A stretch of DNA of 64,000 bases, taken from assembly GCA_951406725.2 (NCBI GenBank), contig OX597843.1:17670001-17734000 (forward strand). Reading direction: 5' to 3'. Shown in pieces: positions 3,416 to 57,152 of the stretch (its first letter is position 1; every line of letters starts with the position of its first letter). A model generated the notes under the pieces. It was not told the origin of the DNA. It did no database searches and saw only the letters and a program-made list of their open reading frames with translations. The DNA comes from Octopus vulgaris (taxonomy: Eukaryota). Made by a program: the position numbers and the translations under genes.

Positions 3416-3458
<43 letters not shown>

Positions 3459-3617
3459 CTTGGTCGGCCCAGGGCTAGAGAAGAAGACACTTGTTGAACA
3501 CGAAATCACAGGGTTGCAAAGCTAACTTCTTAACCATAAAGACATTTCAGCGCCGATGTGTATGTATATGTATATATGTGCGTGTGTGTACGTGTGTATA
3601 TATATATGTCTGTGTAG

Positions 3618-3738: not shown

Positions 3739-4310
3739 GTATATGTGTACTTATGTCGAGGCATAATCAAAACAAGTATAATCAAAATATTAAAGAACAA
3801 ATTACTCGATGCATTTTGCAGAGCACATGCTTCAAAATGAGAAGTGATAGTGACTTCGAAGTTTAGGTCTGCTGTGCTATATATAACGTGATATAGTCCG
3901 ATTGCTATAATATGTAACGTATTATGTGACACGAATTTTGTAACATTTAATGCATTCCTATGGACAAATTTGGATAAATCTATATTTACATACTATAATA
4001 TAGTCCGCGCGTTGTAATACATCGTTATTTCGAGATTGATGTTCAGCAAAAATTAAACGATTGATAGATTAATAGGTTACGAAACTGAACTATTAATATC
4101 ACTTATTCATTTGGTGGGTTTCTGGTGTGGTATTATGGGTTAAATAGTAGAAGAGGAACATTTTATTAAATATTAATATTGTTGGGGGCAGGAAATGTAT
4201 TATTTTTCTTCGGGTACTAAAATATAGCATATAAGGGGTTTAAACGTGTATTCATAAAAATTAAACACACACAAACACACACATACACACACACGCGCAC
4301 ACACACACAC

Positions 4311-4408
<98 letters not shown>

Positions 4409-4561
4409 ATATATATATATATATATATGGTGTTCTTTCAGTTTCCGTCTACCAAATCCATTCACAAGGCTTTGGTCGGCCCGATGCTATAGCAGAAGAC
4501 ACTTGCCCAAGGAGCCACGCAGTGGGACTGAACCCGGAACCTTGTGGTTGAGAAACAAGCT

Positions 4562-5497: not shown

Positions 5498-5548
<51 letters not shown>

Positions 5549-5629
5549 AAGGGTGAAAAGGAACACACGAGTTGATATATATGAAAAAACAAGTCAAAAT
5601 AGAAAATGCTAAAATAATTTTATAGTGAA

Positions 5630-5677
5630 CATTTCAGTACCGGTTTCGGTCATTTTGAGACCTTTTCAACTGTAACG
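5630..5677 (-). ncRNA. Minimal type I hammerhead, U3-A8 core variant
   Basis: CGTTACAG-TTGAAAA-GGTC(TCAAAAT)GACC-GAAAC-CG-GTA-CTGAAATG; stem I 7/8 paired; palindromic stem III ACCGGT. Confidence 0.8.
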
Positions 5678-6390
5678 ATTAAATAATTAAATTTAGAAAA
5701 ATTAAAAGAAAAGTTTTTTTAAAGGAATATTTCTATAGTAGTGTTCAGATATAAGTGGCATTCTGCCTTTCTCTGACTCCCTTGTTTGCACTTGTGTGTT
5801 CGAGGTCGTTGTGAGTTCTTGGTAGGGTAGAAGAAGAAGAAGGCTGATGAGGAGAGGGGGTGGGAAAATCTGGGAGTGCCCTGATGGTCGTATTTTGAAT
5901 GGTCAGTGGCGGCTAGCAGTCGCAGTTCATTCAGGAGAATATTTCTATTGAAAGGCTTGTTTATGGAATTTGCGTAGGTGTTATACTAAAAAGCATTAGT
6001 GACAGGGAGAAGTAGAAGAAGAAGAAGAAGAAGAAGAAGAAGAAGAAGAAGAAGAAGAAGAAGAAGAAGAAGAAGAAGATGACGATGTTGATGATGATGA
6101 TGATGAAGAAGAAGAAGAAGAAGGAGAAGGAGAAGATGATGATGATGATGATGATGGTGGTGATGATGATGACGACGATGATGATGATAATGATGATGAT
6201 GAAGAAGAAGAGGAAGAAGAAGAAAAAAACTGAGAAGGGAGAATATGAATGGGTGAAAGTAGTGAGGTGTTGTATGATTTAAAGTTGGCATGTTATGGAT
6301 TATAGCTGTGATTGGGGCTGATTAGTAATGGATTCTTTGGAATGTAATATTTGTGTGTGTATATTTCTTTTATTCTAAAGTTGAGGTATA

Positions 6391-6640
6391 TTAATTGTTT
6401 GTCGTAGACCCGTTAAGAAGTGGCCTGTATTTTGTAATAAAGAGAGTTTCTTTACTTATTCGTTGTCTCGAGGTTGTATCGTCCCTAAATTGGTAGAGGG
6501 GGAAAATCCTGAAGCTTGGTGTTCTTTTGTTGGCGCAAGTATCTATGTGTTGGCTAAAAGCTATTTTTCTGTTTTGGGGAATTTTTATCTGGGATCTGTG
6601 CAGGGCCATTCGTCGCAAACTATTTTTTGTTTGGCCCTGC
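6391..6640 (-). pseudogene. Penelope GIY-YIG endonuclease C-terminal fragment
   Basis: Motifs GQT..L.RM..HR, H...C and E..FI.K..P.LN ending at a stop codon; no RT portion present. Confidence 0.8.
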
Positions 6641-7293
6641 ACAGATCCCAGATAAAAATTCCCCAAAACAGAAACACCTCTACTATTCCTCCTGCTGGAA
6701 TGATAGTAATAGTATGAGCTGTCGTTGTAATTGAAGCAGAGGCGACAGTGATGATGGTGGTGGTGGTGGTGGTAGCCGAGGCGGTCAAGGAAGATGGTGA
6801 TTTGAAAGACAGTGGTGATGGTGGTGAAATCAAAGGTATTGATAGTGGTGGCGTCAGAAGTCTGAATGGTGTGTGTATGGCAGTGGTGGTACTGGAGATG
6901 GTGGTGGTTGAAAACAATGAACCGAGATAGAGAGAGGTTAGACAGAAAAAACTGTACTGACCCCTGTATGGGAAGACAAAAAAGTGTTGTTTATCATGCA
7001 GCTTTGAAATAAGTTCCAAGTCGACAAATTGTATCATTATTTTAATGAAAATTGTTCATTGCTTGAAAAATATTGTTCAAGTTTAATAAAATTTAATATG
7101 TACTCAATGCATGAAGTGTCATTGTTGGGCTCAAGGCCCAATGAAGATCCCTCCACAGGAGCCAGCTTAAAGCCACCTGATAGGTTGGCTTTTAAGCTAG
7201 TATATATATATATATATATATATATGTACAAATATATACATATACATATATATATATATACAAATATATACATATACACACACACACACACAC

Positions 7294-31055: not shown

Positions 31056-31181
<126 letters not shown>

Positions 31182-31187
31182 ATGTAT

Positions 31188-31312
31188 AAGGATGAAAAGG
31201 AACACAAGAGTTGATATATATGAAAAAACAAGTCAAGATAGAAAATGCTAAAATAATTTTATAAAATCTTTATAAAATTAATTTAGCATTTTCTATCTTG
31301 ACTTGTTTTTTC
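31188..31312. mobile_element. Palindromic fragment of the Penelope pLTR tail (same family as 5548-5700)
   Basis: aaaaaacaagtcaagatagaaaatgctaaa..ataaa followed directly by its reverse complement; lies in (TA)n. Confidence 0.75.
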
Positions 31313-47058: not shown

Positions 47059-47290
47059 GGCGGCGAGTTGGCAGACACGTTAGCGCGCCGGGCGAAATGC
47101 TTATCGGTATTTCGTCTGTCGTTATGTTCTGAGTTCAAATTCCGCCGAGGTCGACTTTGCCTTTCATCCTTTCGGGGTCGATAAATTAAGTACCAGTTTC
47201 GCTCCGGGGTCGATGTAATCGACTTAATCCCTTTGTCTGTCCTTGTTTGTCCCCTCTGTGTTTAGCCCCTTGTGGGTAGTAAAGAAATAT
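47059..47290 (+). mobile_element. Octopus OK-like SINE inserted in a (CTA)n tract
   Basis: GGCGGCGAGTTGGCAG head, B box GAGTTCAAATTCC, gtcgactttgcctttcatcc core; partial minus copy at 22545-22650; family name from recall. Confidence 0.85.
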
Positions 47291-56668: not shown

Positions 56669-56980
56669 TCTTACTCTTTTACTCTTTTACTTGTTTCAGT
56701 CATTTGATATATAATCGAGCAACTACTTATTCTTTTTGTAATAGTACTTATTCTATCGGACTCTTTTCGAACCGCACACAAGTGACAACACACCAGCATC
56801 GGTTGTCAGAGAAAGCTAGGGGGACAAACACAGACACACAAACAAACACATATACATATATATATATATCTATAACACTACTTACAGTTTCCGTCTACAA
56901 ATCACAAGGCATTTCTATTTGGACTGAACAAAAAATGTGGTTGGTTTCTTCTACTCCTTTTCTAAATTTAATTATTTAAT

Positions 56981-57028
56981 CGTTACAGTTGAAAAGGTCT
57001 CAAAATGACCGAAACCGGTACTGAAATG
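56981..57028 (+). ncRNA. Minimal type I hammerhead, U3-A8 variant (second copy)
   Basis: Same sequence as 5630-5677 in the opposite orientation, inside solo fragment 56958-57078. Confidence 0.8.
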
Positions 57029-57072
57029 TTCTTTATAAAATTATTTTAGCATTTTCTATTTTTGACTTGTTT

Positions 57073-57152
<80 letters not shown>

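What the first reader, a model, noticed from the sequence alone, without database searches (positions are those of the whole stretch)
5548..6675. U3-A8 variant hammerhead linked to a Penelope GIY-YIG endonuclease
The core reads UUGAAAA instead of CUGANGA, a double change that keeps the 3-8 tertiary Watson-Crick pair known from hammerhead structures. The motif is identical in the solo copy at 56981-57028, so it is not decay. It terminates a fragment encoding a C-terminal GIY-YIG domain, tying the mini-elements to an autonomous PLE. A C-terminal endonuclease with (TA)n insertion would fit the Naiad or Neptune clades (recall, unverified).
Basis: partly seen in the sequence, partly recalled or inferred. 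Interest (0 to 1): 0.75.

Follow-up and report, generated by a model that had tools for sequence, protein, structure and literature searches.

The report
Penelope retroelement stump with variant hammerhead
This is the broken-off 3' end of a very common, recently active Penelope-type jumping gene; it carries a small RNA motif that is predicted to cut itself and has an already published base-pair swap in its core, so the case is a clean example of a known kind and not a new one.

Summary
A hammerhead-shaped motif sits at window 5630-5677 (minus strand). Its core reads UUGAAAA where CUGANGA is expected, so positions 3 and 8 are U and A. The same 32 bases recur at 56989-57020 and 1820 times in the 2.8-Gb genome. 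With the other 30 bases held exact, C3-G8 occurs once, C3-A8 four times and U3-G8 twice.

Window 5541-6636 is the 3' 1.1 kb of a 4.39-kb Penelope-like element (PLE). It holds the last 81 residues of the GIY-YIG endonuclease, a 3' UTR with an internal microsatellite, the hammerhead, and a 98-nt stretch that ends in (TA)n.

Fuller copies encode RT plus a C-terminal GIY-YIG with a CX4CxxC linker. All 85 scored copies have open frames, many of 784-785 aa. That fits Neptune-type elements, not Naiad, which has an N-terminal endonuclease.

Copies end at two fixed points, +64 or +98 after the predicted cut. They often sit head-to-head, and in 8 of 8 such pairs exactly one arm has the 34-nt tail.

The hammerhead region shows no variant in contigs of four other coded organisms, while its flanks vary.

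The U3-A8 swap in PLE hammerheads was published in 2014 for Schistosoma. Cleavage was not tested here. Verdict: new member of a known kind, modest interest.

The parts
5500..5548 (.). (TA)n microsatellite abutting the 3' end of copy 1; presumed insertion target
   Evidence: Sequence. In a sample of 30 tail-bearing copies, 28 of 29 insertion ends abut (TA)n (the 30th runs on into a tandem unit). (TA)>=5 covers 11.5% of the window.
5541..5574 (-). 34-nt optional 'tail' extension, unit +65 to +98 after the predicted cut
   Evidence: In the tail-selected sample 20 of 30 copies end at +64; 9 end near +98 and one runs on into a tandem unit (10 of 30 carry the extension).
5575..5637 (-). Segment +1 to +64 downstream of the predicted cleavage site; includes helix I 3' strand (5630-5637)
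5630..5677 (-). Type-I hammerhead-like motif with U3 (5669) and A8 (5664); predicted cut between 5638 and 5637
5678..6390 (-). 3' UTR of the element, with an internal (GAA)n/(GAT)n microsatellite at about 5990-6230
   Evidence: 94-95% identical to the L014 unit. The same low-complexity ORFs appear in L014-L016.
6391..6636 (-). Stop codon and last 81 codons of ORF2: the C-terminal two thirds of the GIY-YIG domain, from the G of YIG onward
   Evidence: Pfam on full-length relatives
6632..6674 (+). 43-nt inverted copy of unit 3429-3471 at the 5' break. With 6571-6608 it forms the perfect hairpin that Rfam scores weakly as miRNA-like.
   Evidence: 100% identity, + orientation; sub-threshold miRNA hits
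56945..57084 (+). Second copy: 5'-truncated about 73 nt upstream of the cut, ends at +64 without tail, then (TA)n
31181..31312 (.). Third, hammerhead-less insertion. Two head-to-head arms start about 11 nt after the predicted cut; one has the tail and one does not; (TA)n on both sides.

Best explanation
Window 5541-6674 is a 5'-truncated copy of a young, high-copy Penelope-like retroelement whose 3' region carries a type-I hammerhead motif with a U3-A8 core, and that motif is predicted, not shown, to self-cleave after A17.

Shown:
- The 4386-bp unit occurs in tandem. [quoted passage not shown]
- The hammerhead lies 550-720 nt after the stop codon and about 125 nt before the next unit's start codon.
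- Copies end at two fixed points, +64 and +98 past the predicted cut, next to (TA)n. They often lie head-to-head with one tailed and one untailed arm.

Inferred from published work on an Anolis PLE:
- The GIY-YIG nicks AT-rich DNA on both strands.
- RT starts at two adjacent internal sites of an unprocessed multi-unit RNA. That would give the tail and the two-armed insertions.

Inferred for the ribozyme:
- Helix III is one A-U pair closed by a palindromic CCGG loop, so two copies would pair through ACCGGU and cut as a dimer, or with help from the element's protein.
- The U3-A8 pair would replace the C3-G8 Watson-Crick pair of the active fold.

The short 'mini-elements' in the window are truncated copies of the same element.
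For: Motif and register.

Copy number and fixed U3-A8: 1820 exact copies. C3-G8 1, C3-A8 4, U3-G8 2. 561 one-mismatch copies over 96 possible substitutions give a mean of 5.8 each, so the single changes at positions 3 and 8 look like ordinary decay.

Element identity: the window matches the 3' 1.05 kb of the L014 unit at 94-95%. RVT_1 and GIY-YIG in full copies. DKG, YLDD, CGRPNCGIC and GIY...YIG are visible in the 785-aa frame.

Youth: 85 of 85 scored ORF2 matches are 98-100% identical without stops, out of 31,842 candidates. The best 40 DNA matches are 97-100% identical, out of 2816 candidates.

Link between endonuclease and hammerhead: 6 of 6 open-frame copies carry it.

Insertion signature:
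- 3' ends at +64 or +98.
- 8 of 8 head-to-head pairs have exactly one tail.
- Among the first 100 exact hits there are 22 divergent pairs, 1 convergent and 2 direct (counted by eye).
- This matches the pLTR, inverted-copy and 30-40-bp tail description in Craig 2021, and the two internal RT start sites and cleavage of both strands in Frangieh 2024 (PMC11167929, main text read).

Conservation:
- Contigs of four other coded organisms cover the region and show no variant at 10% or more in 5628-5704, while 48 variant sites were reported over the 452 nt laid. Four runs of organism A show none in 5627-5685.
- Among 30 tail-selected copies, divergence is 5/864 in the 32-mer against 20/1156 at -150 to -83.

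Dimer fold: -27.1 kcal/mol against 2 x -9.8 for two monomers, with a 6-bp ACCGGU helix III.
Against: No cleavage assay exists for this sequence.
- The motif scores 19.7 bits against Rfam's threshold of 52.
- PLE minimal hammerheads cleaved poorly in vitro (Cervera 2014, abstract).
- In the Anolis element, hammerhead mutants did not affect insertion, and no RNA-seq reads ended at the cut site (Frangieh 2024).
- No footprint of cleaved templates was seen here. 28 of 30 tail-bearing copies keep the hammerhead, and the two hammerhead-less insertions start 6-11 nt after the predicted cut, not at +1.
- The invariant block (5628-5704) runs about 27 nt upstream of helix I, beyond the ribozyme, so it may reflect another constraint.
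- No run on record as RNA holds the stretch. The contigs laid bridge the site, so the uncut form exists as DNA or RNA.
- Neptune versus Nematis was not settled by a tree.
Confidence: 0.8

Rival explanations
1. The motif is hammerhead-shaped but catalytically dead or strongly weakened. It would be kept because the same stretch serves another purpose, such as protein binding near the RT start sites, a promoter or leader element of the pseudo-LTR, or an RNA structure.
For: The invariant block extends about 27 nt upstream of helix I into an AT-rich stretch. In the Anolis PLE the hammerhead is dispensable for insertion in vitro and cuts only with protein present. No excess of copies begins at the predicted cut. 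A cluster of 5' ends about 175 nt upstream suggests that the RNA leader starts there, which would place the motif inside a leader.
Against: Every core position other than the covarying 3 and 8 is canonical. G10.1-C11.1, the palindromic loop 3 and an NUH cut site are all present. A double change that keeps Watson-Crick pairing is what selection on the active fold predicts. The C3G/G8C double mutant partly restores cleavage in another PLE hammerhead.
Confidence: 0.25
2. The short copies ('mini-elements') are a separate non-autonomous family (retrozyme-like or SINE-like) with its own transcription, mobilised in trans, and not truncated PLE copies.
For: 8 of 43 sampled copies have 5' ends within unit 4210-4219 and 2 more within 4220-4229, at or near CACAACG. 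One pair has both arms ending there across a (TA)8 spacer. The 22-mer just downstream of that point occurs 1287 times against 508 for one just upstream. Retrozymes are argued to derive from PLE pLTRs (Li et al. 2026, bioRxiv 10.64898/2026.07.22.740005, abstract only).
Against: The short copies are co-linear with the PLE 3' UTR, with no sequence of their own. The other 5' ends are scattered: 4155, 4165, 4249, 4263, 4314, 4329-4338, 4353. No short tandem arrays appeared among the first 100 hits. Window copy 2 starts at about unit 4313, outside the cluster. A direct junction pattern found only 4 matches at 2 loci against 200 for the read-through form. The upstream 22-mer is polymorphic, so the count ratio is not clean.
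Confidence: 0.12
3. The UUGAAAA core is a decayed canonical hammerhead or a chance look-alike.
For: The Rfam score is below threshold. One copy with C3-G8 in an otherwise identical 32-mer exists (L047).
Against: 1820 exact copies against 1. The core is carried by copies with intact, near-identical ORFs. It is invariant in four other coded organisms. L047 is no more diverged than other copies (89.8% against 89.8-90.6%).
Confidence: 0.02

Closest known systems
U3-A8 variant hammerheads in the pseudo-LTRs of Schistosoma mansoni Cercyon PLEs (Cervera and de la Pena 2014, PMC4209133)
   Same: Same covariation (U3-A8 for C3-G8). Same position in the flanking repeat of a PLE. About a thousand or more copies, mostly solo. 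Pairs 100-700 bp apart on opposite strands. Palindromic helix III region and G10.1-C11.1.
   Different: Here helix II is 4 bp, not 7-8. There is a 1-bp helix III with a 4-nt palindromic loop, which is the 'canonical metazoan type I' layout of that paper. There is no clear unpaired base between positions 9 and 10.1. Copies are nearly identical instead of highly heterogeneous. The host and the PLE family are different.
Neptune-type endonuclease-bearing PLEs (Arkhipova 2006, as described in Craig et al. 2021, PMC8557442)
   Same: C-terminal GIY-YIG with a CX2-5CxxC linker, (TA)n-associated insertion, pseudo-LTRs from partial tandems, inverted 5'-truncated copies, 30-40-bp tail, hammerhead near the 3' end.
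   Different: Clade membership was not tested by phylogeny. Nematis shares the linker motif. ORF2 follows a separate upstream frame that overlaps it by about 60 nt.
Poseidon element of Anolis carolinensis, PAc (Frangieh et al. 2024, PMC11167929)
   Same: RT starts at two adjacent internal sites downstream of the hammerhead, which explains the optional tail. Both target strands are cut and extended. The target is AT-rich. The hammerhead sits at the pLTR-ORF junction.
   Different: PAc has a C3-G8 core that overlaps the start codon and belongs to the Penelope/Poseidon clade without the linker. Here the cut site lies about 125 nt before the start codon and the RT start points lie in the 5' UTR.
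Animal non-LTR retrozymes (Cervera and de la Pena 2020, PMC7229834, seen only in a search listing; Li et al. 2026 preprint, abstract)
   Same: Type-I hammerhead with short helix III and palindromic loop; proposed descent from PLE pLTRs.
   Different: No ORF-less short tandem arrays were seen for this family. The motif sits in an autonomous element.

Membership tests
Hammerhead ribozyme, type I (Rfam clan CL00010) | Conserved core CUGANGA ... GAAA ... UH | tested here: inconclusive
   All core positions are canonical except 3 (U for C) and 8 (A for G), which still pair.
Hammerhead ribozyme, type I (Rfam clan CL00010) | Three helices around the core, with helix I open | tested here: met
   Helix I has 3+4 bp with one A-A mismatch. 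Helix II is 4 bp with a 7-nt loop. Helix III is A-U closed by CCGG, or 6 bp in the dimer.
Hammerhead ribozyme, type I (Rfam clan CL00010) | Score at or above a curated Rfam gathering threshold | tested here: not met
   HH9 19.7 bits against 52.
Hammerhead ribozyme, type I (Rfam clan CL00010) | Site-specific self-cleavage | not testable with these tools
   Only contigs were available, not raw RNA reads.
PLE-associated hammerheads, U3-A8 variant (Cervera and de la Pena 2014) | Located in the repeated 3'/5' junction (pLTR) of a PLE | tested here: met
   Present once per 4386-bp tandem unit, between the ORF2 stop and the next start codon.
PLE-associated hammerheads, U3-A8 variant (Cervera and de la Pena 2014) | U3-A8 covariation, G10.1-C11.1, palindromic helix III/loop 3 | tested here: met
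PLE-associated hammerheads, U3-A8 variant (Cervera and de la Pena 2014) | [quoted passage not shown] | tested here: not met
   A 4-bp helix II without a bulge is the simplest reading. This is a typical feature of that group, not a strict one.
Endonuclease-bearing Penelope-like elements | RT domain with PLE motifs | tested here: met
   RVT_1 at 31.5-35 bits (cut-off 29.6). DKG, GIPKIHK and YLDD seen in the 785-aa frame. That these are the PLE motif names rests partly on recall.
Endonuclease-bearing Penelope-like elements | GIY-YIG endonuclease with internal CCHH | tested here: met
   GIY-YIG 23.6 bits (cut-off 22.6) in L015, and 19.5-20.1 in two other copies. CxxC and two His between the motifs were seen by eye, not aligned to references.
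Endonuclease-bearing Penelope-like elements | Partial tandems, inverted 5'-truncated copies, 30-40-bp tail at one end | tested here: met
Neptune clade | C-terminal EN preceded by a CX2-5CxxC linker; (TA)n targets | tested here: met
   CGRPNCGIC lies upstream of GIY. 28 of 29 ends abut (TA)n.
Neptune clade | RT groups with Neptune references in a tree | not tested
Naiad clade | N-terminal GIY-YIG and no canonical hammerhead | tested here: not met
   The EN occupies residues 689-776 of 785, after the RT.
Naiad selenoprotein families | In-frame UGA codons | tested here: not met
   85 of 85 scored ORF2 matches have no stop inside.
Non-LTR retrozymes | ORF-less short tandem repeats, each with a hammerhead | tested here: not met
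   Among the first 100 exact hits there are 2 direct pairs, 3.9 and 4.4 kb apart, and no short arrays.

The most novel reading that the evidence does not exclude
This family is a natural, currently active test bed for the hammerhead 3-8 pair. A U3-A8 core is fixed in thousands of near-identical copies with intact genes. A sister PLE family in the same genome shows U3 with G8, a possible wobble step between C3-G8 and U3-A8. The discrete 5' ends about 175 nt upstream of the cut, and the tail-only insertions that start 6-11 nt after it, would mark the RNA's true start and rare run-off copies on self-cleaved RNA. That would be a genomic footprint of cleavage in vivo, which has not been shown for any PLE.
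Probability: 0.12. Interest if true: 0.55.

Novelty: new member of a known kind. Interest (0 to 1): 0.3.

Why it matters
What hammerheads do in Penelope-like elements is still open. They are near-universal in the endonuclease-bearing clades, yet they were dispensable for insertion in the one element studied in vitro. This family has many identical intact copies, fixed insertion end points and a compensated core pair. That makes it a convenient system for asking whether the ribozyme cuts in vivo and at which step. As a discovery it adds a host and a PLE family to a variant published in 2014. It does not change what is known.

Tried and rejected
1. Expression and cleavage in RNA data. No holder of the stretch is on record as RNA. 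All eight runs laid are contigs, which cannot show RNA ends. Four read-laying requests did not complete before the fifth was.

2. A spike of copy 5' ends at the predicted cut. In 30 tail-selected copies only 1 lacks the hammerhead through 5' truncation. It starts at +6/7. The window's own tail-only insertion starts near +11. That rate is about what the local density of truncation points predicts, so there is no footprint.

3. Genome-wide support for the 5' hot spot. The pattern (TA)4-N0-3-CACAACGACCTCC found 4 matches at 2 loci, both already sampled. The tool says it skips simple repeats, so this is weak either way. The flanking 22-mer counts (200, 1287, 508) are confounded by polymorphism.

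4. Canonical hammerheads elsewhere in the genome. For RF02275, 58 of 128,613 candidates were scored and 4 matched at 35-44.6 bits, all below threshold. On inspection one looks like a plausible canonical hammerhead, one is a plain palindrome and two I could not judge.

5. A broader descriptor scan of the window found only the two known copies. A GAAACTGGTA site at about 47200 lies in a different, SINE-like repeat and is not a hammerhead.

6. Pfam on the window's own peptides: no hit.

7. Papers not held: Przybilski and Hammann 2007 (PMC1986816) and Lunse et al. 2017 (PMC5785218). What they say about U3-A8 activity and PLE hammerhead variants is known to me only from titles in reference lists and from recall.

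8. Literature coverage. The search for 'hammerhead' with 'U3-A8' returned one paper and 'C3-G8' two. Supplements of Cervera 2014 and Craig 2021 were not opened and may list molluscan examples.

9. ESM Atlas: the nearest clusters are ordinary PLE-type proteins.

Full report
**What is there**

On the minus strand, window 5677-5630 reads CGUUACAG-UUGAAAA-GGUC-UCAAAAU-GACC-GAAA-CCGG-UA|CUGAAAUG. This is the layout of a type-I hammerhead:
- Helix I: CAG/CUG, then four more pairs beyond one A-A mismatch.
- A 5' core box.
- A 4-bp helix II closed by G10.1-C11.1.
- The GAAA box.
- A one-pair helix III (A15.1-U16.1) closed by the palindrome CCGG.
- An NUH cut site, with A17 at 5638 and C1.1 at 5637.

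The only departures from the consensus core are U for C at position 3 (5669) and A for G at position 8 (5664).

Rfam's HH9 model aligns the motif in exactly this register, but scores it at 19.7 bits against a gathering score of 52. No family in the window reaches its threshold. The 32-nt core segment is exact at 5638-5669 (-) and 56989-57020 (+), with none expected in shuffles. My own descriptor scan of the window finds just these two.

**It is the family's fixed state, not decay**

| 32-mer variant in the 2.8-Gb genome | Count |
|---|---|
| U3-A8 (as in the window) | 1820 (909 + 911) |
| C3-G8, other 30 bases exact | 1 |
| C3-A8 | 4 |
| U3-G8 | 2 |
| Up to one mismatch anywhere | 2381 |

The last row means 561 single-mismatch copies spread over 96 possible substitutions, or 5.8 each on average. 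The single changes at positions 3 and 8 are therefore ordinary post-insertion noise, and no sub-family carries another core. The lone C3-G8 copy (L047) is no more diverged than other copies.

**What the motif belongs to**

Window 5541-6636 (-) is 94-95% identical to the 3' 1.05 kb of a 4386-bp unit that occurs in tandem in locus L014.

Fuller copies (L014-L016, L052-L057) carry an upstream frame of about 380-440 aa with no Pfam match. A second frame overlaps it by about 60 nt. The second frame is 784-785 aa in many copies. It contains DKG, GIPKIHK and YLDD, then the linker CGRPNCGIC, then NLIYSLTCSGC...YIGQT...H...H...E...N. Pfam gives RVT_1 at 31.5-35 bits (cut-off 29.6) and GIY-YIG at 19.5-23.6 bits (cut-off 22.6, passed in one of three copies tested).

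The window's own piece encodes only the last 81 residues, starting at the G of YIG. That explains why it has no Pfam hit of its own.

A protein search of the genome scored 85 of 31,842 candidates. All 85 are 98-100% identical and free of stops, and many have identical scores. A DNA search scored 40 of 2816 candidates at 97-100% identity. The family is therefore young and probably still active.

In 6 of 6 open-frame copies examined, the hammerhead follows the stop codon. In five it lies 549-563 nt away and is exact. The sixth has a single C-to-U change that keeps a G-U pair in helix II.

**Insertion anatomy**

Copies end at one of two fixed points, 64 or 98 nt past the predicted cut. The 34-nt difference is the 'tail'.
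- In the sample selected by the post-cut segment, 20 of 30 copies end at +64. The other 10 carry the extension; 9 of them end near +98 and one runs on into the next tandem unit.
- 28 of 29 true ends abut (TA)n. (TA)>=5 covers 11.5% of the window.
- Among the first 100 exact hits I counted 22 divergent (-,+) pairs within 5 kb, 1 convergent pair and 2 direct pairs (by eye).
- In all 8 head-to-head pairs that I could inspect, exactly one arm has the tail.

The window shows all of this:
- Copy 1 has the tail and then (TA)n at 5500-5548.
- Copy 2 (56945-57084) has no tail and then (TA)n.
- A third insertion at 31181-31312 consists of two head-to-head arms without any hammerhead, one tailed and one not.
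- At the 5' break of copy 1, a 43-nt inverted copy of unit 3429-3471 is attached (6632-6674). It creates the perfect hairpin 6571-6676 that Rfam scores weakly as miRNA-like.

**How it most likely works**

The anatomy matches published descriptions of endonuclease-bearing PLEs. These describe pseudo-LTRs from partial tandems, an adjacent inverted 5'-truncated copy, a 30-40-bp tail at one end, a hammerhead in the pLTR, and (TA)n targets linked to the CX2-5CxxC linker (Craig et al. 2021, passages).

In vitro work on the Anolis Poseidon element found the following (Frangieh et al. 2024, main text):
- The protein cuts both strands of AT-rich DNA and extends both.
- RT starts at two adjacent internal sites of the RNA, whose spacing is the tail.
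- Unprocessed RNA is the main template.
- The hammerhead cuts only when the protein is present.
- C3G or G8C kills cleavage, and the double mutant partly restores it.

By inference the same holds here. Two cDNAs primed from the two nicked strands would give the head-to-head arms. The two start sites would give the +64 and +98 ends.

For the ribozyme, the fold prediction favours a dimer: -27.1 kcal/mol against -19.6 for two monomers, with a 6-bp ACCGGU helix III. The U3-A8 pair would stand in for the C3-G8 Watson-Crick pair of the active structure. That pair's existence I take from passages of PMC3884650. None of the catalytic steps was tested.

**Evidence of constraint**

Contigs from four other coded organisms cover the region. 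They show no variant at 10% or more between 5628 and 5704, although 48 variant sites were reported across the 452 nt laid. Four runs of the window's own organism label show none between 5627 and 5685.

Divergence among the 30 tail-selected copies:

| Region (relative to the cut) | Differences / bases compared |
|---|---|
| -150 to -83 | 20 / 1156 |
| -82 to -42 | 1 / 738 |
| 32-mer (-32 to -1) | 5 / 864 |
| +1 to +13 | 6 / 390 |

The conserved block is wider than the ribozyme. This leaves room for the rival reading that the stretch is kept for another reason.

**Results against a working ribozyme, or neutral**
- There is no excess of copies starting at the predicted cut.
- The contigs bridge the site.
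- No holder of the stretch is on record as RNA.
- PLE minimal hammerheads cut poorly in vitro.
- In Anolis no RNA-seq reads ended at the site.

**Comparison with what is known**

The U3-A8 covariation in PLE hammerheads was reported in 2014 for Schistosoma mansoni Cercyon elements. That report gives about 1300 hits, mostly solo, some in opposite-strand pairs 100-700 bp apart.

The present motif differs in having the 'canonical metazoan' proportions of that paper (4-bp helix II, 1-bp helix III with a 4-nt palindromic loop) and in being almost invariant.

The element fits Neptune-type PLEs by its linker and target. Nematis shares the linker, and I built no tree. Naiad is excluded by domain order, and there are no in-frame stops that would suggest selenocysteine.

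Earlier notes of this scan on the same genome reached the same reading. They are not independent evidence.

**Verdict**

This is a new member of a known kind. Its value is as a clean, young, high-copy system for testing what PLE hammerheads do.

Noticed in passing
L024:1295-1312, L011:1676-1690, L045, L036, L001, L002, L035 (unit 4210-4220 of L014): Copy 5' ends cluster about 175 nt upstream of the predicted cut, at or near CACAACG. 8 of 43 sampled copies fall in unit 4210-4219 and 2 more in 4220-4229. In L024 both arms end there across a (TA)8 spacer. This may mark the start of the element's RNA, so that 240-270-nt 'mini' copies would be run-off products from the first RT start site. Genome-wide pattern counts did not settle it.
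   Followed up: partly
L012:1740-1830 (-) and L014 (unit 4428-4523): A second, diverged PLE family (RT region about 67% identical in DNA, own GIY-YIG) carries AAGAAA-UUUGAAGA-GC-UAAAU-GC-GAAA-CCGG-UC|UUUCUU. Helix I covaries with family A. Position 8 is G while position 3 is U, with one extra U. Helix II is only 2 bp. It could be a wobble intermediate or a degenerate hammerhead.
   Followed up: partly
L047:1505-1545 (G000:C13:524775-524806): This is the only copy in the genome with a canonical C3-G8 core in an otherwise identical 32-mer. It is no more diverged than other copies, so it is a double change or a conversion and not an old sub-family.
   Followed up: partly
L031/L032 (G000:C1:105906709-105908290): Both arms of one head-to-head pair share the same C-to-T change in GAAACCGG. 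The two arms therefore came from one template or one was copied from the other.
   Followed up: no
L014:4557-4617 and equivalents in L015, L016: The upstream frame (about 380-440 aa, no Pfam hit) and ORF2 overlap by about 60 nt in different frames in every copy examined. ORF2 has no start codon near its beginning. This suggests programmed frameshifting.
   Followed up: no
G000:C9:10672212-10682568 and C9:55715928-55721856: Arrays of two or three ORF2 copies spaced 4.42-4.43 kb apart on one strand, that is, tandem arrays of the whole element.
   Followed up: no
window 47060-47290 (-): A SINE-like repeat flanked by (GTA)n contains GAAACTGGTA followed by a short complement of upstream bases. It has no hammerhead core.
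   Followed up: partly
window, whole: (TA)n runs of 5 or more units cover 11.5% of the 64-kb window, an unusually large supply of this element's preferred target.
   Followed up: no
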